From the NCBI GenBank assembly GCA_963833225.1, contig CAWHXD010000017.1, forward strand, positions 224,001 to 288,000: a DNA stretch of 64,000 bases, in the 5' to 3' direction. The DNA is from an uncultured Chloroflexia bacterium (GTDB lineage Bacteria > Chloroflexota > Limnocylindria > Limnocylindrales > CSP1-4). Within the stretch, counting starts at the first letter, position 1. Each line of letters opens with the position of its first letter. Both the position numbers and the translations under genes were made by a program. This document shows positions 1 through 13,954 of the stretch, one piece after another. The notes under the pieces are model-generated. The model was given only the letters and a program-made list of their open reading frames with translations, made no database searches and was not told where the DNA came from.

Positions 1-245
1 TGGCGCTCCCGCTCTCCCGCGATCCCATCGGCGATGACGCCGCTCGCGAGCAACAACGGGACCCAGGCAAAGGGGAGGATGGCCACCGGCTCGCGCACGA
101 GGTCCGGCCCGATCTGGAGCGGTAGGAAGACCCCGAAGATGACCAGCGAGAACGCCAGCCCGCGGAGCGACTTCTTGAGGCTTCCCGACGCGAAGAGGAG
201 ACCGCGAAGATCCTTCCAGACGATGGTGAGGGCGTCCGCGATCAC
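1..245 (-). CDS. ABC-2 type transporter permease (runs off window start)
   Basis: Manual translation from GTG at 245 (GTGA overlap with ATPase stop): MIADALTIVWKDLRGLL...GVIADGIAGERERH, hydrophobic with the typical AGERE motif. Confidence 0.85.
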   Translation of the reverse strand, partial: MIADALTIVWKDLRGLLFASGSLKKSLRGLAFSLVIFGVFLPLQIGPDLVREPVAILPFAWVPLLLASGVIADGIAGERER

Positions 246-1174
246 GCCTCACCCCCGACGAGCGTCATGAAGGCTTCCTCGAGGTCCGCGCTTCCTTTGC
301 GCACCTCGTCGATGGCCACGCCCTCCTCGACCAGCAGGGCGACCACGGGCGCGGTGTCGACGCCGTCGCGCAGCCGCAGCGTGAGCTTCCCGTCATCGAG
401 CTCGACCGATGCTGCGGCCGGCTGGGCATGCACGAGGGCTGCGATCCTCGCGTCGATCCCTCGTCCCGTGATCTCCATCCGCCCCGATCCGGCACGCGAC
501 CGCAGCTCGTCCGGCCGGCCCACGGCGAGCAGCCCGCCGCGGTTGATCACCCCAACGAGGTCGCAGAGCTTCTCGGCCTCGGCCAGGTTGTGCGTCGTCA
601 GGAACACGGTCACGCCTTCGCGCCGCGCCAAGGCCGTCAGGTCCTCGCGCAGTGCCGCAGCAGCGATTGGGTCGAGCCCCGCGGTCGGTTCGTCGAGGAA
701 CACGAGGGCCGGCCGATGGAGCAGCGTCCGGGCCACGGCGAGCTTCTGCTTCATGCCGCGGCTCCAAGCGCCCACGATCTCGCGCCTGCGCTCCCACAGG
801 TCCAGCCCGGTCAGGAGCTCCCTGACGCGTGCCTGGCGCTCAACGCTCGAGAGGCGCCACACCCGCGCGTAGAAGTCGAGGTTGTCCTGGGCAGTCATCC
901 GCTCGTACAGCCCGGGGTGTTCGAGCAGAGCGCCACAACGTTCGCGGATCGCGCCCGCGTCGGTCCTGGTGTCGTGGCCGAGCACATCGGCGATCCCCGC
1001 GGTCGGTTCGAGCAGGCCCAGGAGCAGCCGGATCGTCGTCGTCTTGCCCGAGCCATTGGGGCCAAGGAAGCCGAAGATCACGCCCGTGGGCACGTCGAGC
1101 GACAGCCCGTCCACGGCGCGGAGCACGCCAAAGTCGCGGGTCAGGTCACGCGTATGGATGGCGAGATCGGGCAC
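242..1174 (-). CDS. ABC transporter ATP-binding protein
   Basis: Walker A GPNGSGKTT, signature WSRGMKQK, Walker B VFLDEPT; start set at GTG 1174 after AGGAGAGGGA RBS. Confidence 0.95.
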   Translation of the reverse strand: MPDLAIHTRDLTRDFGVLRAVDGLSLDVPTGVIFGFLGPNGSGKTTTIRLLLGLLEPTAGIADVLGHDTRTDAGAIRERCGALLEHPGLYERMTAQDNLDFYARVWRLSSVERQARVRELLTGLDLWERRREIVGAWSRGMKQKLAVARTLLHRPALVFLDEPTAGLDPIAAAALREDLTALARREGVTVFLTTHNLAEAEKLCDLVGVINRGGLLAVGRPDELRSRAGSGRMEITGRGIDARIAALVHAQPAAASVELDDGKLTLRLRDGVDTAPVVALLVEEGVAIDEVRKGSADLEEAFMTLVGGEA

Positions 1175-1420
1175 GTAGTCCCTCTCCTGCGCGGCGTATC
1201 TGGGGAGTCGTCCAATTCTAGTCGCCCGCTGGGCCGGCCCGTCTGTATGCCGCCACCCGCCACGATGGCACGATCGTGACCGCGTTCCGACGGCAGTGGG
1301 CGTGCGGCCATTCGGTCCGAACAGGCCCCCATCGGGCAGCATCTGGTGCGCCACCGGACCGAGGAAGCCGAGCCAGTCAAGAGCCGTCGCGCGCGAGCGC
1401 AGGCAGCGCGTGCGCGCGAC

Positions 1421-1448
1421 GTCCGCGAGCGTGCGCCGATGCAACGTG
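1421..1448 (+). repeat. 28-bp intergenic direct repeat, copy A (right arm degenerate)
   Basis: GTCCGCGAGCGTGCGCCGATGCAACGTG. Confidence 0.75.
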
Positions 1449-1504
1449 ACGGGGTCGGGAGCGGACGGTGCGATACTGCCGAAACCCAACCCTCAGGAGG
1501 CAAC

Positions 1505-1747
1505 GTGACTGAGACAGCCACACCGAAGCCGGCTGCGCCTGGCTTCGTCGTCCTGCGTCAGGTCGGCGGGGACCGCTGGCAAATGCTGGGCGAGGTCCGT
1601 CGAAGGCAAGGGCTTCCCGCCAGAGCCGCCCGAACGCAGGCGATCCTTGATGCGACGAACGGCGAGGCGAAGGCCGGCGAGGTTTACGCGGCCGTCCTTC
1701 GCAGCGAGTGGCGGATCGCCATGGACTGGGTGCCCCCGAAGGCCTAG
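1505..1747 (+). CDS. small hypothetical protein (80 aa)
   Basis: AGGAGG RBS at 1495-1500 before GTG; lies between repeat copies A and B. Confidence 0.75.
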   Translation: MTETATPKPAAPGFVVLRQVGGDRWQMLGEVRRRQGLPARAARTQAILDATNGEAKAGEVYAAVLRSEWRIAMDWVPPKA

Positions 1748-1762
1748 GCACAGGACCGCGGG

Positions 1763-1790
1763 GTCCGCGAGCGTCCGGCAGTGTCACCTG
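1763..1790 (+). repeat. 28-bp intergenic direct repeat, copy B
   Basis: GTCCGCGAGCGTCCGGCAGTGTCACCTG. Confidence 0.85.
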
Positions 1791-1820
1791 ATCGAAGGGC
1801 GGTCGTTCTGTGGTGCCGCG

Positions 1821-2012
1821 CTACCGGTAGCCGCCCTTGCCGTCCTTGCGAGCGAGCTCGACCCGCCGGAGCTGCGCTGGGTCGAGGTCGGCCTGTCGCT
1901 TGCCGTCGATGTCGGGCGGCGGTGCGTCGGTTGGAGGTGACTGCGGCAGCAGGCTCGCGATCGTGCCGACAACCCGCTTGAGCGCGGCCACCGCGGGCGT
2001 GATGAGCGACAT
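1821..2012 (-). CDS. small hypothetical protein
   Basis: GGAG RBS before ATG (MSLITPAVAA...); stop 30 bp from repeat B. Confidence 0.55.
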   Translation of the reverse strand: MSLITPAVAALKRVVGTIASLLPQSPPTDAPPPDIDGKRQADLDPAQLRRVELARKDGKGGYR

Positions 2013-2147
2013 CAGGGACTCTCCATAAGGGCGCATCCGCACCCGAGCGCATCATGCTCGGCAAGGGAAGCCCGGTCAATCGAGCAGCCGCCACACCCCG
2101 GACGGCCAGTCGGTTCGGGGGGCTCGGCTTCCAAACGCGTGATTCGC

Positions 2148-2669
2148 TCAGGGCGCAAGCGCGGCGCGCACCCGCTCCGGATACTTCTTCTCCGCGGCCG
2201 TCGCATTGCCTCCGAACGTCCCGCCCGGCACGACGACCTCCACGAGCAGGTTCTGCACGCCGACCCACTCCGAGTGCACAACGCCGTCCCAGCTGACGGT
2301 GCCGCGCGGACCCTGGATGCTCATTCCGCCGAACCCGGGCTGCATCGCCATGCGCTCGGCGGGGGTTGGGTAGACCAACACGACCCCGATGGCTCTCCCG
2401 ATCCCCTTGGCCGTGGTGGTGGTTCCGCGATAGACGAGCTCCGGAAAGACGCCCATGTCGCGATCGTCGGTGGTCGCCACGAGCGAAAGACCGGGATCCA
2501 AGGTCTGGAGTCGGCCCTCGATGTCGGCGAGCGCAAGTGGGGCTGCGGCGGGCGTCGGCTCCGGGGCGACGGATGCCACGCTCGCAGCCGGCGGGGGCAC
2601 GGGAGGCGTCGATGCACACGCCGCGAACACCGCCGCCGATGCTGCCAGGGCGAGAAGCCGCTTCATCAT
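2148..2669 (-). CDS. putative lipoprotein
   Basis: Signal peptide MMKRLLALAASAAVFAAC with lipobox-like FAAC, then Pro-rich linker. Confidence 0.8.
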   Translation of the reverse strand: MMKRLLALAASAAVFAACASTPPVPPPAASVASVAPEPTPAAAPLALADIEGRLQTLDPGLSLVATTDDRDMGVFPELVYRGTTTTAKGIGRAIGVVLVYPTPAERMAMQPGFGGMSIQGPRGTVSWDGVVHSEWVGVQNLLVEVVVPGGTFGGNATAAEKKYPERVRAALAP

Positions 2670-2779
2670 GTCCCGAAATCGCTCATTGCTGGAGCCATCT
2701 TCGGCTCCGGGACACGCCAGTCAAGAGCGAGCGGGCACGCGTCCCTGCCCCGAGGCCCTCGACCGCTCCCGCTGCGCCG

Positions 2780-3136
2780 CTACTTCGCTGCCCAGCCGGA
2801 CAGGGGCTCTGGTGGCGCGGCGAACCCCCCACTCGCGAGGATGTCAACGCCGAGGACATCGCGGCACCATTCGACATACCAGCGGTCGTAATCCGAGTTC
2901 TCCGGATCGAATACGCGGCTGCCCATCAGCTTCAGGTCCTCGGGCTCGATGTCGTAGGTATTGACCCGAAGGTCGAGGCCGCTTGAGAGATGGCTGGCCC
3001 ACATCGCATGCGCCTTCAGCCGAAACCTCGCGTTGAGGGCCTCGTACTCGACCCGGTGTTCTTCAAGCTCGGTGGCCAGTCGCCGGGCTCGGTCCATCGT
3101 TCCCGGGAGGATGGGCTTGGCGGCTCCAAACAGCAT
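2780..3136 (-). CDS. hypothetical protein
   Basis: GGAGG RBS before ATG (MLFGAAKPILPG...); globular composition. Confidence 0.75.
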   Translation of the reverse strand: MLFGAAKPILPGTMDRARRLATELEEHRVEYEALNARFRLKAHAMWASHLSSGLDLRVNTYDIEPEDLKLMGSRVFDPENSDYDRWYVEWCRDVLGVDILASGGFAAPPEPLSGWAAK

Positions 3137-3632
3137 GGTCGCGCCTCCTTCCGACTTGATGGGCAACGAACGCGGGCGTGATGACCGACATCGAGGGACC
3201 TCCCTCACGGGCGAATCGGCGCCCGAGCCCCATCATCCTCGGCTTGGTTGGCGCGGGTCAATCGACCCTGCGGAACCACGGTGCCCGCCGGGGTCCAGTG
3301 CCGCCCGGCGGCCCCCTGGACGCGCGGTGCCACAACCGGTTCCCGCCAGGGAGTCAGAGCACGACTGTTCGTCGCGGGCTCTGTCCCCGGCGACATCGGA
3401 TCTGCTGTCGGTCAGCCACCAGACGACTACGTGTCAACCGGGCAGGCCGACACGGGCCCCGACCTGGGCGTCGACGCCGCCGGGCCGGGACGAGCAGTCG
3501 TCCTGTGACTGGCTGGCAGGAATCGCCCGATGCGGAAACAGGCCGGTCTTAGGGCCTGTAGCCGATTGATCCCGCACGAACTACCACGTTTGTGCCATTC
3601 AAGTTGACGCTCCCGGCTGTCAGGCTGCCCTC

Positions 3633-4482
3633 ATGGGCGCGGTGACCGAGCTGACGGACGAGGAGTGGGGGCTGGTCAAGCACTTGTTCGACCCGCCCAC
3701 GCATCGCGGCGTCAAGGGCACGATCCCGCGACGCGACATCGTGGACGCGATCCTGTGGGTCGCCCGGACCGGCTGCCAGTGGCGGCACCTGCCCGACGGG
3801 TTCCCGGACTGGCAGGCCGTGTGGAGCCAGTGGCGTCGGTGGCGGGACAACGGCACCTGGGCAGCCGCGATGCGCGTGCTCGCGCGGGAGATCCGGCTCC
3901 GGCACAAGCGCACGGCGGACCCGACGATGGTCATGATCGACGGCCAGACGGTGAAGGGCGGGCGCGGCGGGCCAACGTTCGACGAGGCCGGCGGGCGCGG
4001 CGGCTACACGCGCGGCGCCAAGCGCACGATCCTGATCGAGATCCTCGGGCTGCCGCTTCGCGGTGTCGGTCAAATCGGCCAAGCCGCACGATGTCCAGTC
4101 GGCGCGGCGGATCCTCAAGGACCAGCTGGACGCGCCCCCAGCCCAGCAGCCGAAGCTACCTGGCCTCCAGGCCATCGTCGCCGACCGTGGCTACACGGGC
4201 CTCGCCGCGCTGGCCAACACCCACGGCCTCAACCTCGACATCAAGCGGCCGCCCCCCGCCCCGATGCTGCCGCCCGCGAAGCCCGGCGGGAAGCCGAGGA
4301 AGGGCAAGCGCACCTTCACCCCGATCCGTCCGCTCTACAAGGTCGAGAACGCCTTTGCCCGGCTCGGGATGTGGCGCCAGCTGTCTCGGTGCTATGAGCA
4401 GACGGCGCTCGGCGCGCAGACCTGGCTCGAGGTCGCCTGCGTCGCTTACCTGTGCGGGAGGCTGCGCGTCGAGCCGACGTAG
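3633..4482 (+). CDS. IS5-family DDE transposase, frameshifted near 4059
   Basis: N-terminal LTDEEW...RTGCQWRHLP, IDGQTVK, then second frame with ADRGY and YKVENAFARL...LSRCYE; one extra base at CTGCCGCTTCGCG. Confidence 0.9.
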
Positions 4483-4970
4483 GCGCCCATCAGGCGCGTC
4501 GTAGCCTGGACGAGAACGCCCCAGAGGAACGTAATCGGCAGAGCGGCGATCACGGCGGCCGCGCCGTAGAACACCAGCCCGTAGAGGCCAAGCACGGCGA
4601 CCGCACCCACCACTTCGAGCGGACCGCTGACCCCGACCCGAAGTTCCGCCGGCTGACTCGCGAGCATGGTTGCGACATAGGCGAGAGCACCGAGTGGGAG
4701 CCCGATGAGGATCGCGGCGATCGATCCACCGAAGGCGGTCCAGCGATCGCCCGGGGCAACGCCGGGACCGAGCAGCCATCCGACAACCAGCGCGACGGGC
4801 ACCGCGACGACCACGATGGGCCCGGCATCTGGCGTGGACGTGACGGGCATGCCGAGGAGCAGCGCAAAGAGGGGTGCGAACAGCACGGCGGCCGGTATCC
4901 CCCACAGGGCACCGACCACGTGTGCGTTGGTCCTCGGTGACACCGCTAATGTGATACTCACAGGTAGCAC
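4446..4970 (-). CDS. membrane protein, IS passenger (start uncertain, possibly 4943)
   Basis: About 5 hydrophobic segments; inside the IS inverted repeats and convergent with the transposase. Confidence 0.7.
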   Translation of the reverse strand: MLPVSITLAVSPRTNAHVVGALWGIPAAVLFAPLFALLLGMPVTSTPDAGPIVVVAVPVALVVGWLLGPGVAPGDRWTAFGGSIAAILIGLPLGALAYVATMLASQPAELRVGVSGPLEVVGAVAVLGLYGLVFYGAAAVIAALPITFLWGVLVQATTRLMGAYVGSTRSLPHR

Positions 4971-5133
4971 AATGGTTCAAGGGCCTCGACTTGTCAAGCG
5001 GGTGGCGTAATCGGCTACAGGCTCTGAGTGACTCCCCCTTCGCCGGTAGCCATCGCCCCATCAAGCACGCGATCGGGAGGCTCGATGGGTCGCTGAAGCT
5101 CTGCTGACGCCGGTCGAGCCGCATGGCGGCATC

Positions 5134-5161
5134 GTCCGCGAGGGTGCGCCAATGACACCTG
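5134..5161 (+). repeat. 28-bp intergenic direct repeat, copy C
   Basis: GTCCGCGAGGGTGCGCCAATGACACCTG. Confidence 0.9.
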
Positions 5162-5201
5162 ACCCTCAGCACCGCCGACCCAGCTCGCAGGCCTGTGCAG
5201 G

Positions 5202-5720
5202 TCACATCGCCGAGGGGGTGCCGACGCGTTCGAGGACGGCCTCGACCTGCGGCAAGGCAGCGAGGTACTGGCGGTCGGCCAACTGCTTGAGCGCCACGAA
5301 CAGAGCGGTCGCGACGACATCGGCAAGGACGAACGCGGCAAGACTGGCGACGGTGCCCAACAGGAGCAGCGGCGCGGCCAGCACCAGCCCGAGGCTGATC
5401 GCGATCGGCCAGTCCCACTTGCTCGCGGGTGTGGTCGCGCGACCGACAAGCCGCGTACCTGTGCCCTGCGGGACGAGCTCACCTCGGACTTCGAGGGCGA
5501 GCGGGTACTGCGTGTGGATCCGCCCGGGCTCACTGTGCGCGTCGATCAGGAGGTCGAGCCTCCGCCCCCCGACCGACCCGCGCACGAGCCAAAACGACCA
5601 GGTGGCATGCCCCGCGTCCTCGTAGCGCTCCTCGGCGATGGCGCGCCCGATCGCGGCCGCGACCGCGTCTGGTGGCACGTCCCACCTGGCACTGACCGAG
5701 CGACTGATGAGCGATCTCAC
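5202..5720 (-). CDS. hypothetical membrane protein
   Basis: Soluble N-terminal domain plus two C-terminal hydrophobic helices; between repeats C and D. Confidence 0.7.
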   Translation of the reverse strand: MRSLISRSVSARWDVPPDAVAAAIGRAIAEERYEDAGHATWSFWLVRGSVGGRRLDLLIDAHSEPGRIHTQYPLALEVRGELVPQGTGTRLVGRATTPASKWDWPIAISLGLVLAAPLLLLGTVASLAAFVLADVVATALFVALKQLADRQYLAALPQVEAVLERVGTPSAM

Positions 5721-5807
5721 AGCGGACCTCGCGCTCTCCCCGCTCTCATCGTCCGAGCGACCTTCGCCCTGGTCAAGGTGCCGTTCGTACCGAGACGTGG
5801 CGGCCCG

Positions 5808-5835
5808 ATCTGCGAGGGTGCGCCAATGTCACCCG
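5808..5835 (+). repeat. 28-bp intergenic direct repeat, copy D
   Basis: ATCTGCGAGGGTGCGCCAATGTCACCCG. Confidence 0.9.
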
Positions 5836-5840
5836 GCAGA

Positions 5841-6035
5841 TCAGCAGCGCGACAGAGCGAGGATTGCCGTGCCGGAGGCCAGGGCGACAGCGGACCACAG
5901 GCCGACCGACGCCCATGGCAGGACGGCGAACATCGGCGTCAGGAGTGCCCACGCTGTGTAGGCAAGGCCTACACCAGCAACAGCAATCAGGCTGCCACCG
6001 GCGACGCTGCCGACAACACGCGCCAAGGTCCTCAT
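5841..6035 (-). CDS. small two-helix membrane protein
   Basis: MRTLARVVGSVAGGSLIAVAGVGLAY..., hydrophobic; stop 5 bp from repeat D. Confidence 0.5.
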   Translation of the reverse strand: MRTLARVVGSVAGGSLIAVAGVGLAYTAWALLTPMFAVLPWASVGLWSAVALASGTAILALSRC

Positions 6036-6388
6036 CGATTGTCCTGGACGATCGCCGCGGCCCATACGGGTCGCCTGGGTCGCAATGCGTCCGCGCAATG
6101 TCCCCTGATGCAGGTGGGGATCACCTGGGCAGAGGGGCATCCCACCATCGAAGCGCGAGGGCACGCTGGACTTCGCGCGGATCGCCCGCGAGCAGGTCTC
6201 GAAGGACCTCAGTCTGGTTGGCGAACGCCCGTGCAATCTCAAGGGCGTCAGCCGCGCTCCGGGCCTGCGACAGCGATCTGCCGGAGCGCCTTCGGGCCGG
6301 AGAAGGAGCGCTCGTCGGTGTCGCCGGTCGATTGACCGTGCCCTGGTTGTCCTTGGAGGCTCACGGGCAGATAGTACGCACTGGCAAT

Positions 6389-6416
6389 CTCCGCGAGCGT
6401 GTGTCAACCACACCTG
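6389..6416 (+). repeat. 28-bp intergenic direct repeat, copy E
   Basis: CTCCGCGAGCGTGTGTCAACCACACCTG. Confidence 0.8.
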
Positions 6417-6474
6417 GTGACCAGCTAGGGGCGGACGCGCTTGGATGAGCCGCAAAGCCCGTCCGCGTTAGGAG

Positions 6475-6783
6475 CTACGGACTTGCGCTCGGTCCCGGCT
6501 CGGCGCGCAGGCACAACTTGCCTTCGGGGGTGCCGAACTCGGCGTCGGATCCAGTCGGGCACGTGGCGTCCCTGCCCACCCAGGAGAGAACAACGTGGGT
6601 GTGTGGGCCGGAGCAGTCGGCGTTCCCGATCTGCTGGTGGTCGCCATCCGCCGACCCGTCGAAGTTCACGCACGCGCCGTCAGGGAAGCCGTCAGCCACG
6701 TCGTCGCGCTGTCGGCATGCCCCGATGGAAGCCGCGACCAGGAGCGTCCCCAGCAAGAACGGCAAAACGCGCAGTGATGTCAA
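6475..6783 (-). CDS. Cys-rich putative lipoprotein (LppU/SCO3897-like), start approximate
   Basis: Signal peptide ending IGAC; pattern GACV..ADC..H..VL..CP..LCL. Confidence 0.65.
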   Translation of the reverse strand: MTSLRVLPFLLGTLLVAASIGACRQRDDVADGFPDGACVNFDGSADGDHQQIGNADCSGPHTHVVLSWVGRDATCPTGSDAEFGTPEGKLCLRAEPGPSASP

Positions 6784-6947
6784 TCGAAGGCACTGAGCCC
6801 GATCGACATGACCCCTGCCCACGCGATATAGGCAAGCGCGAGGACGAGCACTCCCGCCAGGATCTGCCTTCCAGTCAATCGAGACACAGTCGGGTTCCTC
6901 GTGCGCAGCTGCCGCTGCGTATGCTCGTCACGATAGATGAGGCTTTG

Positions 6948-6975
6948 GTCCGCGAGCGTTTGCAGATGTCACCCG
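6948..6975 (+). repeat. 28-bp direct repeat, copy F; contains the stop codon of the adjacent gene
   Basis: GTCCGCGAGCGTTTGCAGATGTCACCCG; the minus-strand TGA of ORF 6969..7532 lies in TGTCACC. Confidence 0.85.
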
Positions 6976-7532
6976 AGACGGGCGAACGGCACCGGCTCCC
7001 GACCGCCGACCAGGTCCGCAAGCGCGGCGACGACAGTGCGCATCGACGTGTCGGCTAGGTAGCAGTCATAGCCGTCGGCGATGCACTCGAATGTGGAGTC
7101 ATGGAAGCCGAGGATGAAATGGCGCAAGCGCTCGAACCGCTCAGGCCGATGCAGGGGATGCACCCGGTTGGCCGCCTCCAGCTCCCGGATCCACGCGCTG
7201 CCCATCACCTCAGCCGCACCGTAGTGCCCTGCGTCCGCCAGGCCGCTCGACCAGAGCGCGTGCCCGTGAAGGGCCTCATCGTTCAGGCCACCGAGCACAG
7301 CCCCGCGACAGTCGAGCCACTCAACGATGCCGATCTCGCCTTGGTTCGGTTCCTCGGGAGGCAGAGCGGTGAGCGGCCCGAGCTTGAGGGCGGTAGCGGC
7401 GAGCCCGAACGCCAGGAACGTCCGAAACTCGGACTGAATCAGCACCGGCTCGGGCGCACCCGAATCCCAGCCGAGACCGATATCGATCGGATGGACCTGC
7501 TCGCCAGTGGTTTGGTCGTGTCCGAAACGCAC
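6969..7532 (-). CDS. hypothetical protein (NDEA..GH / FHDSTFEC motifs)
   Basis: GGAGG RBS; motifs LNDEALHGH, WIRELE..NRVH and RHF..FHDSTFECIA, recalled from an uncharacterised accessory family. Confidence 0.8.
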   Translation of the reverse strand: MRFGHDQTTGEQVHPIDIGLGWDSGAPEPVLIQSEFRTFLAFGLAATALKLGPLTALPPEEPNQGEIGIVEWLDCRGAVLGGLNDEALHGHALWSSGLADAGHYGAAEVMGSAWIRELEAANRVHPLHRPERFERLRHFILGFHDSTFECIADGYDCYLADTSMRTVVAALADLVGGREPVPFARLG

Positions 7533-7643
7533 ACTGCCTCCGATCGCCGCTCTCGGATAGGCCGGCTCGTCGAGCAGCGAAGTATCGACCGATTGTGAGG
7601 GAAATGGAGGACCCGGGGTCCGGACAAGTCACGCCAGGTTCTC

Positions 7644-7660
7644 GTCCGCGAGTGTCATCT
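7644..7660 (+). repeat. internally deleted repeat, copy G
   Basis: GTCCGCGAG joined directly to TGTCATCT; about 10 central bases missing. Confidence 0.5.
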
Positions 7661-7710
7661 CCCCCGACCGCGCAACCGCGATCCGTGCCCGTGCGGCAGA
7701 AGCGCCGGGG

Positions 7711-8673
7711 TCAGACCCCGCTCGCGCCCGCCTCGGCGAGGTACTGCCGCGCGGCGGCGCCTCGGACCTGCCGGATGTCCTCCTCGTACTTGAGGACCAC
7801 GCCCAGGGTCTCGTCCACGAGATCCGGGTCAAGCTCGGTCGCGCCCAGGGAGAGCAGCGCTCCGGCCCAATCGAGCGTCTCGGCAACCCCCGGGACCTTG
7901 GTCAGATCGGCCGTGCGCAGGCGGTGGACAAAGGCGACGACCTCGTGGGCGAGGCGCGCGGGGACGTCCGGCACCCGGGTGGAGACGATCTCGAACTCCT
8001 TGTTTGCGGTCGGGTAGTCGATCCAGTGGTAGAGGCAGCGCCGCTTGAGGGCGTCGTGCACCTCGCGGGTCCGGTTCGACGTCAGGATCACGCGCGGGGC
8101 CTTCGTGGCCCGGATGGTGCCGATCTCGGGAACCGTGACCTGGAAGTCGGACAGGATCTCCAGCAGGTAGGCCTCGAACTCCTCGTCCGCGCGGTCGATC
8201 TCGTCGATGAGCAGGACTGGCGGCGTGCCCTCGTGGTCCTCGAGCGCCTGGAGGAGCGGGCGCTTGAGCAGGAACTCCGGGCCGAAGATGTCGTGCGCCG
8301 ACGCCTTCGCGATGTCGCCGCGAGCCTCGAGGAGGCGGATCTCCAGCATCTGCCGCGGGTAGTTCCACTCGTAGACCGCGGTGTTGACGTCGAGACCCTC
8401 GTAGCACTGGAGGCGGATCAGGCGCGCGCCCAGGCTGGAGGCCAGGACCTTCGCGAGCTCCGTCTTGCCCACGCCGGCCTCCCCCTCAAGAAGTAGCGGG
8501 CGGCCAAGCTCCAGGGCCAGGAAGACGGTGGTCGCGAGCGAGCGCTCGGCGATGTACCCGTGGCTGCGGAAGGCGTTCGCGATGCCCTCGATGGATCGGG
8601 TCGCCTCGGGGCGGTCCTCGCGGGCGGCGGACCGGGTGGCGGCGGAGGTCACGGGAGTGGGCTGATCAACCAT
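7711..8673 (-). CDS. coxD: MoxR-family AAA+ ATPase, CoxD-like
   Basis: LEGEAGVGKT, RLQCYEGLD, LLIDEIDRAD, HDALKRRC; downstream of coxSLM. Confidence 0.9.
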   Translation of the reverse strand: MVDQPTPVTSAATRSAAREDRPEATRSIEGIANAFRSHGYIAERSLATTVFLALELGRPLLLEGEAGVGKTELAKVLASSLGARLIRLQCYEGLDVNTAVYEWNYPRQMLEIRLLEARGDIAKASAHDIFGPEFLLKRPLLQALEDHEGTPPVLLIDEIDRADEEFEAYLLEILSDFQVTVPEIGTIRATKAPRVILTSNRTREVHDALKRRCLYHWIDYPTANKEFEIVSTRVPDVPARLAHEVVAFVHRLRTADLTKVPGVAETLDWAGALLSLGATELDPDLVDETLGVVLKYEEDIRQVRGAAARQYLAEAGASGV

Positions 8674-8721
8674 GGGGGCCGATCCTACACCGATCCGGCG
8701 GTCCGTCCGCCCGCGGGCGCC

Positions 8722-9771
8722 TCATCCGTCGGGGGCGTCAAGGTCCCGGGCATACGCCGGGAACCGGAAGCGCTGGCTCCGGTTGAGGATCCCGCCGTGC
8801 GCGAGCCGGGCCACGGTCGCAGCGGTGGCCGGCTGGCCCGCGGCCAGGCGCGGCAGGAGGAGATCGGCGGCGGTGGCCATGGAGAACGCGCCGCAGCTCG
8901 GCAGGCCGATCACGACGGTCGGGCCCACCACCGCCATCCAGAGCATGGAACCCGGGTGGGCTGGCACGCCGCGGCGGACGATCCTGCCGCCCAGGCCGTC
9001 GATGGCGGCGAAGAATGGATCGGCCGGGTCGGTGCTCGCGCCACCCGCGGCCAGGACGATGTCGGCGCGGCCGTCGGCGCTGGTCGTGAACGCCGCCAGA
9101 GCTTCGGACACGGCGGCATCGGCATCCTCGACATACCGGATCTCGCCGAGGATCGCCCGCATCCCGGCGGCCTTGGAGCTGATCGCGGCCTCGAACCGCC
9201 GCCGCACGGCGGGCGCCACGTCGCCCTTCACGATCACGGCCATGCGAACACCGCGATAGGCGCGCACCCGCACGATCGGATCGCCGCGACGGGCGATGGC
9301 CTCACCCGCAGCGAGAACGTCCTCGGGGACCACGTGCGGGGCGATCTTGACGCTCGCGACCAGGTCCCCCGGCTCCACGGGCTGGCCGTCGATCACCGTG
9401 AACACCTCGAGCGGATCGATCCGGTTGATCCGTTCCAGTGCCGCCAGGCGGATGTCCACGATCCCGGCCCCGGCCGCCACGAGATCGACCCGGGATTGCG
9501 CCGGCCCGCGCACGACGAGCTCCGGCCGACCCCGAGTGACGGCCGCGGCCAGCCGGATGGCGGCCTCGTCCTCGTGGACGTCCAACGCGTCGGCCACGAT
9601 GACCCTGGCCGCCGGGCCTGCGGGCGCCGCGCCGATCGCCGCGAGGTGGGCGGGGGTGAGCCGCGTTCCCTTGGCAATTCGTCCACCCGCGACGGCAAGG
9701 TCACGGGTGAGGATGGCGCCCAGCAGGTTCGTGGACGGCGTGCGGCCCGGGACGATCTGCTCGAGCCGCAC
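8722..9771 (-). CDS. molybdopterin-binding protein (MoeA/MoCF-biosynthesis-like)
   Basis: VHEDEAAIRLA, GGASTDPAD, GVPAHPGSMLW, GLPSCG..S..TAADLLLPR. Confidence 0.8.
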   Translation of the reverse strand: MRLEQIVPGRTPSTNLLGAILTRDLAVAGGRIAKGTRLTPAHLAAIGAAPAGPAARVIVADALDVHEDEAAIRLAAAVTRGRPELVVRGPAQSRVDLVAAGAGIVDIRLAALERINRIDPLEVFTVIDGQPVEPGDLVASVKIAPHVVPEDVLAAGEAIARRGDPIVRVRAYRGVRMAVIVKGDVAPAVRRRFEAAISSKAAGMRAILGEIRYVEDADAAVSEALAAFTTSADGRADIVLAAGGASTDPADPFFAAIDGLGGRIVRRGVPAHPGSMLWMAVVGPTVVIGLPSCGAFSMATAADLLLPRLAAGQPATAATVARLAHGGILNRSQRFRFPAYARDLDAPDG

Positions 9772-9796
9772 CCGCCGGTTCCGTGGACCGCGCCGC

Positions 9797-10657
9797 TCAG
9801 CCCAGGCGGGCCAGCGCGGCCTCGATCGCGCGCCGCGTGTACACGACGGCCATGGCCGCGCGGTACTCGCTCCCCGCGTGGATGTCCGAGTTGATCTCGA
9901 CCTCGACGGTCACGTGCTGCGCCGCGGCGGCGATCGCGTCCGCCGACCCGTCGCTGCCGACGAGGGCGGACTCCACCTCCGGCGCCCGGTACGCGTGCTC
10001 GTGGACACCGGTCACGCCGATGCCCGCCCGCGCGATGCGCTTGTCGGCGCCCATGATGACCACGGCGGCCACGCCGACCATGGCGTAGCCGGAAGCCGGC
10101 TGTTCAAGCGTCGCGTACGCCGAGCCCGCGTTGTCGAGCGGCGCCGGGAGGATCACCTCCGTCAGCAGCTCGTCATGGCGCATGGCCGTGGCGAAGGCCC
10201 CCTCGAAGAACCCGTCGGCCATCACCGTCCGGGTCCCCGCGGCGGACCGGAGCACGAGCTCCGCATCCAGCGCGAGCAGCGCGGCCGGCAGGTCCGAGGC
10301 CGGGTCCGCGTGGGCGACGGAGCCCCCCACGGTGCCGCGGTTGCGGACCTGGACATCGCCGATCCCGGGCAGCATGTCCTTGAGCACGCCATAGTGCCGG
10401 GCCGGCGAGTCCATGAGCTCCGCGTAGGTCGTCAGCGCGCCAACCGACAGCCGGCCGTCGTCGAGCGTCCGCACGCCGCGAAGCTCCGGGATCCGCCCGA
10501 TGTCCACCAGCGTGGCTGGGTGCGCGAGCCGCAGCTTCATCAGCGGCAGCAGGCTCATGCCGCCCGCGATCACCTTCGCGCCACCATCCGATGCAAGCAT
10601 CCGCAGCGCCTCGTCGAGGCTGCCCGCCCGCGTGTAGCTGAACGCCGCCGGGATCAT
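9797..10657 (-). CDS. coxM: molybdo-hydroxylase FAD subunit (CoxM-like)
   Basis: IAGGMSLLP, QVRNRGTVGGS.AHADPASD; ATGA overlap with coxL stop. Confidence 0.93.
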   Translation of the reverse strand: MIPAAFSYTRAGSLDEALRMLASDGGAKVIAGGMSLLPLMKLRLAHPATLVDIGRIPELRGVRTLDDGRLSVGALTTYAELMDSPARHYGVLKDMLPGIGDVQVRNRGTVGGSVAHADPASDLPAALLALDAELVLRSAAGTRTVMADGFFEGAFATAMRHDELLTEVILPAPLDNAGSAYATLEQPASGYAMVGVAAVVIMGADKRIARAGIGVTGVHEHAYRAPEVESALVGSDGSADAIAAAAQHVTVEVEINSDIHAGSEYRAAMAVVYTRRAIEAALARLG

Positions 10658-13056
10658 GCCTGGCCTCCCTTCGCGCTCTGGATGGCGCCCCACACCTTCT
10701 GCGCCGTGTACGGCATGTCGAGATGCCGGATGCCCAGCGGGCTGAGCGCGTCGATGACGGCGTTCGCCACGGCCGCCGTGCTCGCGATGCACCCCGCCTC
10801 GCCGACGCCCTTGACACCCAGCGGGTTGACCGGCGACGGCGTGATGGTCTCGTCCAGCTCGAAGGCCGGCAGCCACGAGGCCCGCGGGAGCGCGTAGTCC
10901 AGCATGGAGCCGCTGAGCAGCTGGCCGTCGTCGCTGTAGACGGCGCCCTCCCAGAGCGCCTGGCCGATGCCCTGGGCGATGCCTCCGTGGAGCTGGCCGT
11001 CCACGATCATCGGGTTGATCTTCTTGCCGACATCGTCAACCGCCACGTAGCGGACGAGGTCCACGTGGCCGGTCTCCTCGTCCACCTCCACGAGCGCGAT
11101 GTGCGTCCCGAACGGGAACGTGCAGTTGGGGGTGTCGTGGTACGCGGTCTCGTCGAGGTACGGCTCCATCCCCTCCGGGGTGTCGAAGGCCAGGTCGAGC
11201 GCGAACGCGATCTCCTGGATCGTCTTCACCTTGTCGGGCGAGCCCTTGACCCGGTACTCGGCGCCATCGACCTCGATGTCCTCCGGGTTCGCCTCCAGCA
11301 TGTGCGCCGCGTACCGCCGGGCCTTGTCGCGGATCTTGGCGGCCGCCTTGAGAGCGGCCCCGGTCCCGACATTGGACGTCCGCGACCCGTACGAGCCGTA
11401 GCCAAACGGCGTGCCCTGGGTGTCGCTGTGCTGGACGACGATGTCGTCCATCGGGATGCCCAGCTCGTGGCTGATGATCTGGGCGTAGGTGGTCTCGTGG
11501 CCCTGGCCCTGCGGCTGGGTGCCCATGGTGACGACGACCTTGCCGGTGAGGTGGACCTTGATGTTGGACGACTCCCACATCGCCGCGCCCCAGCCCTCGC
11601 CGACGGCCCCGATCCACTTCGATGGCGCGACGCCGCAGACCTCGATGTACGTAGAGAGGCCGATGCCGAACAGCTTGCCTCGCGCCTTTGCCTCGGCCCG
11701 TTTCGCGGCGACGTCCGCGTAGCCCGCCATCGCGAGCGCCTTGTCCAGCGCCGGCTCGTAGTTGCCCGAGTCGATGTACAGCTTGGAGCCGTTGACGGCG
11801 GTCAGGAGCCCCGATGGGTTGTCGTACGGGAAGCTGTCGGGTGGCAGGAAGTTCCGCCGCCGGATCTCCGCGGCGTCGATCCCCAGCTCGTCGGCGACGA
11901 GGTCCATCGCCCGCTCCACGACGTAGGTCGCCTCCGGACGGCCGGCGCCACGGTACGCGTCCACGAACGTGGTGTTGGTGTAGACGCCGGTGACCTCGCA
12001 ATGGACGTTCGGGATCTTGTACGGCCCCGAGAGGATGCGGCCATACAGCGTCGTCGGGATGCCGGGGCCGATCGTGGACAGGCGGCCGCCGAGGTTGGCG
12101 TAGGTCTTGACGCGCAGCCCCTGGACCTCGCCGGTCTTGGTCGCGGCGGCCTCCAGGTACGTGATGTGGTCGCGGCCGTGGATCGTGCTCTGGTAGTTCT
12201 CGCGCCGGCTCTCGACCCACTTGACGGGGCGCCCGCCGATCGCCTTGCTGGCCCACATGACGAGCGCCATGTCCGCGTAGCAGAAGATCTTGGTGCCGAA
12301 GGCCCCACCGACGTCGGGGCTGATGCAGCGCACCTTATGCTCGGGGATGCCGGTCACGAAGGCCGTCAGCAGCAGCCGCTGGATGTGCGGCGTCTGGCTG
12401 GACATCCAGACCGTGTACTCATCCGTGCCCGGGTTGTACCAACCGATGTCACCCCGGACCTCCATCGGGTTGGGGATCAGTCGCTGGTTCACGACGCGCT
12501 GCCGGACGATGACCTCGGCCGCGTCGAAGGCGGCATCGGTGCCGCTCTTGTCGCCGACGGCCCACTCGAACACGACGTTGTTGGGCGCGTTCTCGTGCAG
12601 CTGGGGGGCGCCGGGCTGGGTGGCCTTCTCGGCATCCACCACGGCCGGGAGCGGCTCCCACTCCACCCGGATCAGCTCCAGGGCGTCCACGGCCTGCTCC
12701 GGCGTCTCCGCGACCACCGCGGCCACGCCCTCGCCGGTCCACTTGACCGAGTCCGTGGCGAGCACCCGGGGCATGTTGACGTTGTTCGTGATGCCGCTCG
12801 CCCCGCCTGCCGGCCAGGCCATCGGGAGCGGGTTGTACGGGATGTCGGCGCCGACGAACACGGCCAGGACGCCGGGGGCCGTCTTCGCGGCCGAGATGTC
12901 GATCGACCGGATGTTCGCGTGCGCGTATGGACTGCGCAGGATCGACATGTGGACCATGCCGGGCATGCTGATGTCATCGAGATAGCGACCCTGGCCCGTG
13001 ATGAACCGGGGATCTTCGACCCGCTTGACGGGTGCGCCGAGGACGTCGGTGGTCAC
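10654..13056 (-). CDS. coxL: xanthine dehydrogenase-family molybdopterin subunit, form II CoxL-like
   Basis: GGAFGTK, active-site loop AYRGAGR (form II, not AYXCSFR), GQGHET, GVKGVGEAG. Confidence 0.93.
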   Translation of the reverse strand: MTTDVLGAPVKRVEDPRFITGQGRYLDDISMPGMVHMSILRSPYAHANIRSIDISAAKTAPGVLAVFVGADIPYNPLPMAWPAGGASGITNNVNMPRVLATDSVKWTGEGVAAVVAETPEQAVDALELIRVEWEPLPAVVDAEKATQPGAPQLHENAPNNVVFEWAVGDKSGTDAAFDAAEVIVRQRVVNQRLIPNPMEVRGDIGWYNPGTDEYTVWMSSQTPHIQRLLLTAFVTGIPEHKVRCISPDVGGAFGTKIFCYADMALVMWASKAIGGRPVKWVESRRENYQSTIHGRDHITYLEAAATKTGEVQGLRVKTYANLGGRLSTIGPGIPTTLYGRILSGPYKIPNVHCEVTGVYTNTTFVDAYRGAGRPEATYVVERAMDLVADELGIDAAEIRRRNFLPPDSFPYDNPSGLLTAVNGSKLYIDSGNYEPALDKALAMAGYADVAAKRAEAKARGKLFGIGLSTYIEVCGVAPSKWIGAVGEGWGAAMWESSNIKVHLTGKVVVTMGTQPQGQGHETTYAQIISHELGIPMDDIVVQHSDTQGTPFGYGSYGSRTSNVGTGAALKAAAKIRDKARRYAAHMLEANPEDIEVDGAEYRVKGSPDKVKTIQEIAFALDLAFDTPEGMEPYLDETAYHDTPNCTFPFGTHIALVEVDEETGHVDLVRYVAVDDVGKKINPMIVDGQLHGGIAQGIGQALWEGAVYSDDGQLLSGSMLDYALPRASWLPAFELDETITPSPVNPLGVKGVGEAGCIASTAAVANAVIDALSPLGIRHLDMPYTAQKVWGAIQSAKGGQA

Positions 13057-13067
13057 GTCGCGCCTCC

Positions 13068-13565
13068 TCAGGCCGTGGCGACGGGGGTGGCCCCGTCACG
13101 CATGGCCCGGGCCGCCTCGCGGACCGCGACCACGATGTTGTGGTAGCCGGTGCAGCGGCAGATGTTGCCCTCGATCGCGTGCCGGATCTCGGTGTCGGTG
13201 GGATCGGCATTGCGCGCGAGCAGGTCGGCCGCGGCCATGATCATCCCGGGCGTGCAGAACCCGCACTGGAGGCCATGCTTCTCCCAGAACGCGTTCTGGA
13301 GGGGGTGCAGGGCGCCGACGTCACCCATCCCCTCGATGGTGGTGACGCTCGAGCCGTCCGCCTGGACGGCGAGCATCGTGCAGCTCTTCACGGCCCGGCC
13401 ATCCAGGTGCACCGTGCACGCCCCGCACTGGCTCGTGTCGCAGCCCACGTGGGTGCCGGTGAGCCCCAGGTCCTCCCGCAGGACCTGGACGAGGAGCCTG
13501 CGGGGCTCGACATCGACCTCCCGTGGTTCACCGTTCACCTCGAGGGCGACGTGCAGCTCGGTCAC
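13068..13565 (-). CDS. coxS: 2x[2Fe-2S] subunit (CoxS-like)
   Basis: [27 protein letters not shown]; GAGGAGG RBS before GTG 13565. Confidence 0.95.
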
Positions 13566-13954
13566 CGGGACGACCTCCTCGCCGACATCGGCGGTCTGGG
13601 CGCCGGGTCGTGGACCCGGCGGGTGCGCAGGACCTGTGGCCCACTCCGACCGGGCCAACTGGCTCCCGGAGCGAGGCTCCCCGATGGTGGCAGGATCGAG
13701 GGCTCGGCGCAACCCGGGACTTCGGTGGGTCCTGGTGAGGGGGCCACGGGGCGGGGCGGGCCGATCGGGCGGACACCCGCCCAACTCACCCTGTGCATCG
13801 GATCCGGGCCTGCGCCGCACGCTCGCGACACGCAGCGCGGGTTCGGACGCATCGGCCTGCGGCCCAGACAGCATTCCGATGCGTCCCGTGAGTTGCGGCC
13901 CGGCCAGGGGCGGCACGTAAGCCGCCGGTAAGCGGCGACCGCTACAACTCGGAC

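What the first reader, a model, noticed from the sequence alone, without database searches (positions are those of the whole stretch)
5133..5160. The repeat has dif-like 11-6-11 geometry, suggesting a Xer-type tyrosine recombinase site
Seen: shifted by one base, the consensus parses as GGTCCGCGAGC-GTGCGC-CAATGTCACCT, with well-conserved arms and more variation around the centre. Established: E. coli dif is GGTGCGCATAA-TGTATA-TTATGTTAAAT. In this register each arm matches 6/11 (GGT.CGC and ATGT.A..T), but the TAA/TTA core flanking the spacer is missing. Direct orientation would give excision/integration, unlike the alternating pdif modules. Inference: the site could be read by a divergent XerC/D-like pair; the resemblance may be chance.
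Basis: inference. Interest (0 to 1): 0.7.

Follow-up and report, generated by a model that had tools for sequence, protein, structure and literature searches.

The report
Serine-integrase site bounding gene cassettes
The repeat is real but is not a dif/Xer site: it looks like the attachment half-site of a large serine recombinase, and it marks the borders of small mobile gene cassettes stacked in arrays in uncultured soil bacteria of two phyla.

Summary
The repeat exists. The window holds six direct (+) copies at 1422, 1764, 5135, 5809, 6390 and 6949, plus a shorter terminal variant at 7645. None are expected by chance.

The dif reading fails:
- The copy at 5133-5160 matches E. coli dif at 10/28; 4% of this genome's 28-mers do as well.
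- The repeat has no dyad symmetry.
- The genome's true dif (ACTTCCGATAA-GGTAAG-TTATGTC...) lies on another contig and matches the repeat at only 6-8/28.

The repeat instead bounds about 0.2-1.5 kb gene cassettes in directly oriented arrays. These occur in Limnocylindria-type Chloroflexota and in Actinomycetota MAGs. Like cassettes turn up in different arrays, with homology breaking at the repeat. One metagenome contig joins 6949 to 7646, exactly one cassette fewer.

In 10 of 10 evaluable loci of one large serine recombinase (LSR) family, and in one genome of the window's own genus, an LSR plus a rolling-circle Rep gene sit at one end of such an array. The site beside the LSR start carries the same distal motif 5 bp closer in, which is the published attP/attB half-site geometry of serine integrases.

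The window's genome has no such LSR, so its array is an orphan. No activity has been tested.

The parts
1422..1449 (+). Repeat copy M1 (TCCGCGAGCGTGCGCCGATGCAACGTGA). Its right part is diverged.
1764..1791 (+). Repeat copy M2. It lies between the convergent small ORFs 1505-1747(+) and 1821-2042(-).
2703..2722 (+). Probable decayed repeat copy, judged by eye. In one metagenome contig the DNA from 2740 onward is preceded by an intact repeat-like right part.
   Evidence: (table 7, X1 loose end at 2740); not tested statistically
3241..3266 (+). Probable decayed repeat copy, judged by eye. The sequence after it is homologous to the sequence after a repeat copy in the C7 array. A metagenome contig joins 1757 to 3244.
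   Evidence: (table 5)
3633..4482 (+). IS5-family transposase in two frames (DUF4096, then DDE_Tnp_1), inserted within the array.
5135..5162 (+). Repeat copy M3.
5809..5836 (+). Repeat copy M4.
6390..6417 (+). Repeat copy M5, a variant (TCCGCGAGCGTG then TGTCAACCACACC...). The same variant plus 14 following bases occurs at G000 C7:465422, beside an IS110-family transposase.
6949..6976 (+). Repeat copy M6, the last full-length copy.
7645..7667 (+). Terminal short-type site (TCCGCGAGTGTCATCTCCCCCGA). It has the same start as the repeat, and its distal part lies 5 columns closer in. It sits 44 nt from the stop of the coxD-like gene and aligns with the sites next to LSR genes in other genomes.
   Evidence: (alignment A3)
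1505..7532 (.). Cassette cargo: small ORFs without Pfam hits at 1505-1747(+), 1821-2042(-), 4446-4970(-), 5202-5720(-), 5841-6455(-) and 6969-7532(-). GC3 and GC are lower than in the flanks.
7711..8673 (-). Chromosomal flank: coxD-like AAA ATPase. In six other genomes of the genus it is followed directly by Phd/PIN and coxE, with no repeat.
242..1189 (-). Other flank: ABC-transporter ATPase.

Best explanation
The repeat is the conserved half of an attachment site of a family of large serine recombinases (LSRs). It consists of the crossover dinucleotide (TC here, TG in Actinomycetota) followed by one complete attP-type half-site of about 26 bp (CGCSAGCGTGCG-NNAA-TGTCACCYGA). The half-site to its left is the end of the preceding unit and is almost unconserved. 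That is why the site looks asymmetric.

Small autonomous elements carry the LSR gene, a rolling-circle Rep gene and Rep's own origin. They integrate at a chromosomal junction. Further circular units carrying the same half-site, most without any recombinase, pile up there one after another. The result is arrays of directly oriented sites separating cassettes of 0.2-1.5 kb. The array ends next to the chromosome in a short 'B-type' site, in which the distal motif sits 5 bp closer to the crossover.

The window holds such an array (1422-7667), inserted downstream of a coxD-like gene. It has lost, or never had, the LSR-Rep module. It is therefore an orphan array that could move only with a recombinase supplied in trans.

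Shown: the arrays, cassette re-assortment, linkage to LSR-Rep in relatives, the 5-bp geometry, and one natural one-cassette-shorter variant.

Inferred: that the LSR acts on these sites, the exact crossover, and the order of accretion.
For: 1. Arrays.
- The window has six direct copies plus the terminal variant.
- G000 has 11 copies in 3 clusters.
- Same-genus genomes have arrays of 20 (G017), 8 (G001) and 4 (G008) copies.
- The data set yielded 174 unique inter-site units, median 633 bp.
- Orientation is uniform in 88 of 89 loci.

2. Cassette behaviour.
- The same unit occurs in different contexts, with homology ending at the repeat. L115 and L132 share 93% over 1370 nt.
- A cassette of G008's cox-locus array shares 91.7% over 472 nt with the G000 C7 array. 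Three further pairs were found.
- G008 carries a 2.39-kb insert with 4 sites where G013 and five others have none.
- A public metagenome contig joins 6949 to 7646 with 7 shared letters. The missing 696 bp is exactly the unit between M6 and the terminal site. Another contig joins 1757 to 3244.

3. Recombinase linkage.
- The order is array, then Rep (REP_ORF2-G2P), then LSR (Resolvase + Recombinase + Zn_ribbon_recom), always in one relative orientation. This holds in L085, in G442 twice, and in G473, G472, G468, G497, G496, G485 and G465. That is 10 of 10 loci with sequence on that side.
- The same holds in G655 (the window's genus) and G321 (its family).

4. Site geometry.
- The site 20-35 nt upstream of the LSR start aligns with the repeat but lacks 5 columns (GGGAA) in 8 of 9 loci.
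- The reverse complement of its LSR-proximal half aligns without gaps to the repeat core, with 14 invariant columns.
- In serine integrases the zinc-ribbon-domain motif of attB half-sites lies 5 bp nearer the centre than in attP half-sites (PMC3783163, passages read).
- The window's site at 7645 and G008's terminal site show the same 5-column gap.

5. Rivals excluded.
- No hairpin partner or extra folding.
- No Rfam family.
- Rep has its own hairpin plus a CTTGTATWAGCAAC origin.
Against: - The window's genome has no homologue of this LSR, at E<=1e-10 with the G442 protein or at E<=1e-15 with the same-genus G655 protein. Its four Resolvase-domain genes are far from the arrays.
- G001, G008 and G017 and G443-G445 also have arrays without it. 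Only 2 of 61 genus genomes sampled have it. The MAGs are 72-93% complete, but G443 is a complete chromosome.
- Serine integrases are normally unidirectional and inactive on hybrid sites without a directionality factor (abstract of PMC3783163). No such factor was identified.
- Array sites keep only one well-conserved half-site, and whether an LSR can use them is untested.
- The LSR-Rep element could simply be one more guest that uses the array's end as its landing site.
- L247 has no Rep hit. L248 shows one copy only. In L250 the LSR and Rep are degraded and the copies lie 4-6 kb away.
- More distant LSR homologues (39-49% identity; G580, G430, G152) have no repeat in the flanks fetched.
- The crossover position rests on five homology pairs and two single low-depth contigs.
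Confidence: 0.72

Rival explanations
1. One reading: a dif-like 11-6-11 site used by the host's XerC/XerD pair or a divergent pair, with the arrays being IMEX-like accretions.
For: - Every genome searched has a conserved pair of Xer-like genes. Several array-bearing genomes show no other shared recombinase.
- The right part shares ATGTC with the right arm of the genus dif and ATGTCA with the Frankia dif.
- IMEX arrays at dif are a known precedent (recalled).
Against: - Matches run 7-12/28 to E. coli dif, 5-8/28 to Frankia dif and 6-8/28 to the genus's own dif, all within the genomic background.
- The repeat has no dyad symmetry.
- The true dif is single-copy and on another contig. The repeat has 11 copies in three clusters.
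- The LSR linkage and 5-bp geometry fit another enzyme class.
Confidence: 0.03
2. The repeat has another, still unidentified cognate recombinase. The LSR-Rep element, like the IS110 elements, merely targets the conserved repeat as a convenient landing site.
For: - Most arrays lack the LSR.
- IS110-family elements also sit in or beside the repeat: 9 distinct transposases were found near it.
- Targeting of recombination sites by such IS is known for integron attC (recalled).
Against: - Across about 200 repeat loci, the only recombinase or transposase families found were the LSR, the IS110 elements, and scattered IS5, Mutator and rve transposases. No other family recurs.
- The LSR-proximal site is built from the same half-site in inverted and 5-bp-shifted form. 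That is expected of the enzyme's own attP-derived site, not of a foreign target.
Confidence: 0.13
3. An integron-like system: attC-type folded sites used by a tyrosine integron integrase encoded elsewhere (the arrays being CALINs).
For: The arrays hold small, mostly unannotated cassettes, have site variants homogeneous within an array, and carry IS insertions. All this resembles sedentary chromosomal integrons.
Against: - No match over the TIGR02249 cut-off in 5 genomes.
- No tyrosine recombinase near the repeat loci.
- No inverse-core partner and no extra folding.
- Gene orientation is mixed, 87 versus 56.
Confidence: 0.02
4. The cassettes are shuffled by an IS110-type (bridge-RNA) recombinase whose guide specifies the asymmetric repeat.
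For: An asymmetric site is natural for an RNA-guided enzyme, and IS110 transposases recur near the repeat.
Against: - No IS110 DEDD domain was found in G017 (20 cassettes), G001 or G008.
- The IS copies interrupt the repeat at differing positions and carry their own ends.
Confidence: 0.04
5. A transcription signal, for example an ECF-sigma promoter (GGAAT / TGTCAC -35-like) or a terminator shared by island genes.
For: The actinobacterial version contains GGAAT and TGTCAC. ECF sigma genes are the commonest neighbours, with 10 distinct examples.
Against: - No conserved -10 at any fixed distance; information is about 0 bits beyond +26.
- Repeat orientation is constant while gene orientation is mixed.
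- No hairpin.
- The sigma cassettes carry their own GGAAT...CGTC element downstream of the repeat.
Confidence: 0.03

Closest known systems
SCCmec-type composite islands (Ccr large serine recombinases) of staphylococci
   Same: Mobile units are stacked in tandem and bounded by direct repeats of the attachment core. Only some units carry the LSR genes, and the others are presumed to be moved in trans. (The SCC facts are recalled, not checked here.)
   Different: Here the units are much smaller, with a median of 633 bp. Arrays occur at several loci per genome. The autonomous unit pairs one LSR with a rolling-circle Rep. The hosts are uncultured Chloroflexota and Actinomycetota. The landing sites are not one conserved gene.
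Integrons (sedentary chromosomal integrons and CALINs)
   Same: A recombinase gene sits at one end of a directly oriented array of small cassettes. Many orphan arrays exist. Site variants are homogeneous within an array. IS110-family elements target the sites.
   Different: The enzyme is a serine, not a tyrosine, recombinase. The sites are linear sequence motifs, not folded attC hairpins. Gene orientation is mixed, and at least the sigma cassettes examined carry a promoter-like element of their own. The platform also encodes a Rep.
Serine-integrase attP/attB systems of phages and ICEs (A118/LI, phiC31, Bxb1)
   Same: The domain set is Resolvase + Recombinase + zinc ribbon. The site lies immediately upstream of the integrase start. 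A distal motif is shifted by 5 bp between the two kinds of half-site.
   Different: Those systems give one attL and one attR per element. Here dozens of attL-like sites persist in tandem, and most units have no integrase.
Actinomycete integrative and conjugative elements (pSAM2-type AICEs)
   Same: They are integrative elements that carry a rolling-circle Rep with its own origin. (AICE facts are recalled.)
   Different: The core module has no transfer gene. It uses a serine instead of a tyrosine integrase. It has the associated cassette array.
dif / IMEX elements (XerC/D)
   Same: Directly repeated sites flank integrated units.
   Different: Sequence, symmetry, copy number and position are all unlike dif. 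The true dif was identified elsewhere.

Membership tests
dif / Xer core site | 28-bp 11-6-11 site whose two arms are imperfect inverted repeats | tested here: not met
   The best arm complementarity is 5-6 of 9, and 1399 and 1849 of 2000 shuffles do as well.
dif / Xer core site | Resembles the organism's own dif | tested here: not met
   The repeat matches the genus dif consensus at 6-8/28. The G000 dif at C8:75830 scores 23/28 to that consensus, with the next best 28-mer at 18.
dif / Xer core site | Single copy per replicon at the replication terminus | tested here: not met
   There are 11 copies in 3 clusters, and dif lies on another contig. The window's GC skew is uninformative.
dif / Xer core site | Bound and recombined by XerC/XerD | not testable with these tools
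   This needs EMSA or recombination assays.
Integron attC / integron | IntI-type integrase with its extra domain | tested here: not met
   TIGR02249 gave no match over the 265-bit cut-off in 5 genomes. No tyrosine recombinase lies near the repeat loci.
Integron attC / integron | Imperfect palindrome (R''-L''...L'-R') that folds as single strand | tested here: not met
   No inverse-core k-mers occur in the flanks. Mean folding energy is -20.4 against -20.2 and -20.0 in control flanks, over 150 copies.
Large-serine-recombinase attachment site | LSR gene (Resolvase + Recombinase + zinc ribbon) directly beside a site | tested here: met
   Met in relatives: 9 loci have a site 20-35 nt upstream of the LSR start, including the window's genus. 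Not met in the window's own genome.
Large-serine-recombinase attachment site | P-type and B-type half-sites share a distal motif offset by 5 bp | tested here: met
   A 5-column gap separates array sites from LSR-proximal or terminal sites. The rule is taken from PMC3783163.
Large-serine-recombinase attachment site | Quasi-symmetric pair of half-sites around a 2-bp crossover | tested here: inconclusive
   The LSR-proximal site has two inverted half-sites. Array sites keep only one. The crossover is placed within the first ~8 nt by homology breaks and by one joint with 7 shared letters.
Large-serine-recombinase attachment site | Recombined by its LSR | not testable with these tools

The most novel reading that the evidence does not exclude
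A serine-recombinase counterpart of the integron. A small LSR + rolling-circle-Rep platform accretes and re-assorts gene cassettes, at least some carrying a promoter-like element of their own, at one chromosomal junction. Cassettes are exchanged across uncultured soil Actinomycetota and Chloroflexota. Most arrays persist as orphans that are re-activated when an autonomous unit arrives.
Probability: 0.4. Interest if true: 0.85.

Novelty: new variant of a known kind. Interest (0 to 1): 0.7.

Why it matters
If the reading holds, two abundant and poorly known soil phyla share a cassette-capture system built on a serine recombinase rather than on the tyrosine integrase of integrons. That would be a new route for assembling accessory genes. 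Cargo seen here includes sigma/anti-sigma pairs, small redox and hydrolase enzymes, toxin-antitoxin modules and defence genes. It would also supply a family of natural serine integrases with a well-defined, highly conserved half-site and many natural pseudo-sites, which is useful for studying site recognition.

For the finding as written, the result is a correction. The 'dif-like' look is coincidence, and the true dif of this genus is now identified.

Tried and rejected
- **dif.** I compared the repeat with E. coli, Frankia and genus dif. All matches are at background level.
- **attC hairpin.** A k-mer partner search and folding of 150 copies showed nothing.
- **Coding motif / orphan toxin-tip model.** Rejected by reading. 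Both candidate frames hit TGA in common variants, and the flanks are unconserved.
- **Promoter.** There is no -10 signal.
- **Rfam.** No family covers the repeat.
- **Rep acting at the repeat.** Rejected, because Rep has its own hairpin and nick-like motif. No such origin and no Rep remnant occur in the window.
- **IS110 as the cassette enzyme.** The family is absent from G017, G001 and G008.
- **A shared extra tyrosine integrase.** The 'third' integrases of five genomes are not one orthologue group.
- **Primary attB.** The empty coxD-Phd junction of G013 shows no repeat, and the G008 insert has no full repeat at its outer ends.
- **Viral contigs.** There were 2 hits, one inside a phage ORF and one at a contig end. 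PLSDB plasmids gave no match at E<=1.
- **Literature.** The sequence strings returned only unrelated primer hits in the 20 of 92 papers listed. Searches for 'integron-like' cassettes in these phyla and for LSR cassette arrays found no description; listings only were read.
- **Public runs.** All held 14% or less of the sampled words. Apart from the joints cited, uncovered parts say nothing. The X2 joint 4429 to 6647 has a side of only 21 letters and was ignored.

Full report
**What is at the coordinates**

Positions 5133-5160 read CGTCCGCGAGGGTGCGCCAATGACACCT. This 28-mer belongs to a repeat with six + strand copies in the window, at 1422, 1764, 5135, 5809, 6390 and 6949. A degenerate pattern found 3 copies where 100 shuffles gave none. 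The whole genome (G000, 3.89 Mb, 20 contigs, about 71% GC) has 11 copies in three clusters, on C17 (the window), C7 and C15. The copies share about 25-28 nt, and their flanks are unrelated.

**Is it dif-like?**

- The real copies score 7-12/28, and the copy of the finding scores 10.
- In this genome 4.1% of all 28-mers reach 10, 0.48% reach 12, and unrelated 28-mers reach 17-19.
- Against the Frankia alni dif printed in PMC3025954 (passages read) the copies score 5-8/28.
- The repeat has no dyad symmetry beyond shuffles.
- A dif-core pattern found a single-copy site, ACTTCCGATAA-TGTGAG-TTATGTC.., in 12 of 30 other genomes of the genus.
- G000 has this site at C8:75830 (ACTTCCGATAAGGTAAGTTATGTCTCGC; 23/28 to the genus consensus, next best 18). 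That is another contig than the window. The repeat matches it at 6-8/28.
- The window's GC skew is flat and uninformative.

**What the repeat does in the genome**

Copies are always direct within a locus: 88 of 89 loci with at least 2 copies. They are spaced by one or two small genes. Arrays and cassettes in the data:
- The genus arrays have 20 copies in 19 kb (G017), 8 (G001) and 4 (G008).
- Scans of public collections found the repeat in MAGs labelled Chloroflexota/Limnocylindria, Thermoleophilia, Gaiellaceae, Acidimicrobiia and Actinomycetes (50 stretches).
- Three single hits, in a Gammaproteobacteria, a Planctomycetota and an Eggerthellaceae MAG, carry 5-6 further mismatches and are probably chance.
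- A logo of 282 distinct copies shows one conserved block, (C)TCGCC-TG-SGCSAGCGTGCG-NN-AATGTCACC-YGA, and nothing outside it.
- 174 distinct inter-site units have a median length of 633 bp, range 182-1501.
- By a crude GC3-based ORF call, the genes inside lie on either strand: 87 minus, 56 plus, 31 without a call. Pfam-supported sigma genes confirm both orientations within one array. The repeat is therefore a DNA-level signal, not an expression signal.
- No hairpin partner, no excess folding and no Rfam family were found.

**Cassettes move**

- An all-against-all comparison found the same unit in different neighbourhoods, with homology ending at the repeat. L115 and L132 share 93% over 1370 nt.
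- A cassette of G008's array shares 91.7% over 472 nt with G000's C7 array. Three more pairs exist.
- The window's array and G008's lie at the same place, downstream of a coxD-like gene, but hold different cassettes.
- G013 and five other genomes of the genus have coxD followed directly by Phd/PIN-coxE, with no repeat. G008 carries a 2.39-kb insert there.
- Contigs of public metagenome runs laid on the window gave two joints. One goes from 6949 to 7646 (skips 696 bp, 7 letters shared by both sides, one contig at depth 3.7). The other goes from 1757 to 3244 (one contig at depth 2.3).
- The first joint removes exactly the unit between the last full repeat and a short variant at 7645.
- The second runs from just before the repeat at 1764 to what looks by eye like a decayed copy at about 3241.
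- These are single low-depth contigs from related strains, so they are hints rather than proof.

**Which recombinase?**

- **Tyrosine recombinases.** G000 has two Xer-like genes and one other integrase far from the arrays. No integron integrase was found in five genomes. In about 200 repeat-bearing loci, phmmer with nine query ORFs taken from tyrosine-recombinase loci gave a single weak hit.
- **IS110-family transposases.** They recur near the repeat, with 9 distinct examples, but they interrupt it. The family is absent from G017, G001 and G008.
- **LSR-Rep in the first loci.** Next to the last repeat of a metagenome array (L085) lie a rolling-circle Rep gene and a large serine recombinase.
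- The Actinomycetota MAG G442 has the same trio twice, each followed by an array of 7 and 18 copies respectively.
- **LSR-Rep in relatives.** Homologues of this LSR occur in 9 of 121 relatives of G442. That count includes the unpublished G564, which I did not analyse.
- In all 10 loci with sequence on the Rep side, the order is array, then Rep, then LSR, in one relative orientation. Copy numbers are 11, 6, 2-3, 7 (+4 beyond the LSR), 1, 13, 2, 7, 18 and 5. An eleventh locus starts inside the LSR gene.
- One of the ten lacks a Rep hit, and one has degraded genes with copies 4-6 kb away.
- **The window's own lineage.** In the window's own class the LSR is in 11 of 151 genomes.
- G655, of the window's genus, has LSR (2923-4320), Rep (4436-5218), an ApeA-type HEPN gene, and then repeats at 7080 and 8235 in the expected orientation. 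G321, of the same family, has repeats at 7641 and 9374.
- Three more distant homologues (39-49% identity) have no repeat in the flanks fetched.

**Site anatomy**

- In nine loci a site lies 20-35 nt upstream of the LSR start codon. It aligns with the array repeat on both sides but lacks five columns (GGGAA) in eight of the nine.
- The reverse complement of its LSR-proximal half aligns without gaps to the repeat core, with 14 invariant columns in 8 sequences. The LSR-proximal site is therefore two inverted half-sites, one long and one short.
- Rutherford et al. (PMC3783163, passages read) showed that serine integrases read a distal zinc-ribbon-domain motif. In attB half-sites this motif lies 5 bp closer to the crossover than in attP half-sites.
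- On that rule the array repeat is a crossover dinucleotide plus a P'-type half-site. The LSR-proximal site is P + B', an attR.
- The poorly conserved sequence left of each array repeat is the end of the preceding unit.
- The window's site at 7645-7667 and G008's terminal site show the same 5-column gap. Both arrays thus end toward coxD in a B'-type junction.
- The homology breaks and the 7-letter overlap of the 6949/7646 joint place the exchange within the first ~8 nt of the repeat, as this model requires.
- Rep has its own hairpin and a CTTGTATWAGCAAC motif. That motif is absent from the window.

**What remains against it**

- The window's genome has no homologue of the LSR, and its Resolvase-domain genes are elsewhere.
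- G001, G008, G017 and G443-G445, the last group including a complete chromosome, also carry arrays without it.
- Only 2 of 61 genus genomes sampled have it, against 7 of 24 with the repeat.
- Arrays are therefore mostly orphans, and activity on one-sided sites is untested.
- No directionality factor was identified.
- The LSR-Rep unit could be merely the latest guest at the array's end.

I put the LSR-site reading at about 0.72, an unknown other enzyme at about 0.13, and the Xer reading at about 0.03.

**Comparison and novelty**

In function the system resembles SCC composite islands and integrons: tandem cassettes, a recombinase at one end, and many orphan arrays. In site architecture it resembles phage serine-integrase att sites. 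It is not a member of the dif/Xer or integron families, because their defining features were tested and not met.

My searches found no description. These covered the sequence strings (20 of 92 listed) and two topic searches. Only the listings were read, so a description may exist outside the library.

I rate it a new variant of a known kind: serine-integrase integrative elements, here with cassette accretion across two phyla.

Noticed in passing
G000 C8:75830-75857 (not in the window); genus loci L204-L209: The genus's true dif, ACTTCCGATAA-TGTGAG-TTATGTC.., is single-copy in 12 of 30 other genomes. Its outer right arm is unconserved.
   Followed up: partly
window 6390-6428; G000 C7:465422; L116:5954; L027:4605: IS110-family elements sit in or against the right part of the repeat in several lineages, and 9 distinct transposases were found near repeats. 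This is reminiscent of the IS1111 group that targets integron attC sites (recalled). The window copy at 6390 shares a 39-nt variant with the C7 copy next to such a transposase.
   Followed up: partly
window 3633-4482: An IS5-family transposase, split over two frames (DUF4096, DDE_Tnp_1), lies inside the array. A similar IS follows the last repeat in G017.
   Followed up: no
G443 (complete chromosome): repeats at 0.74, 1.40, 1.61, 2.01 and 2.75 Mb; dnaA at 1.206 Mb; dif-like site at 2.612 Mb: All five repeat loci point toward the origin of replication, and G442 agrees. In G445, however, only 1 of 3 loci does. This may be a replication-polarity bias, or chance.
   Followed up: partly
L084/L085, L069, L051, L007 and others: Two-gene cassettes of an ECF sigma factor (often with a SnoaL_2 tail) plus a large unannotated partner recur, three times in one array. 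They carry their own GGAAT...CGTC promoter-like element just after the repeat.
   Followed up: no
L263:5707-7071 (G655): An ApeA-type HEPN gene (a defence-associated family) sits between the Rep gene and the first repeat of the platform in the window's genus.
   Followed up: no
L085:4660-4760; L226 and L227 equivalents: The Rep gene's presumed double-strand origin is a perfect GC hairpin followed by CTTGTATWAGCAACGAAACTCG. It is conserved in three elements.
   Followed up: partly
window 1-14000: The coxE and xdhC genes follow coxD in seven other genomes of the genus, directly or after Phd/PIN (in G008 after the insert). They are missing downstream of coxD here, and an ABC-transporter gene flanks the array instead. 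This points to a rearrangement or deletion at the array.
   Followed up: no
window 25358-25696: Runs of 18-nt tandem repeats (GCCTCGGGCGACTCGGTG and TCGTCGCCCTGGTCGTTG types) occur here. They probably encode a repetitive, acidic, low-complexity protein segment.
   Followed up: no
window 1200-7600: GC (0.69 against 0.71-0.725) and third-codon-position GC (about 0.8 against about 0.95) are lower than in the flanking core genes, as expected for acquired DNA.
   Followed up: partly
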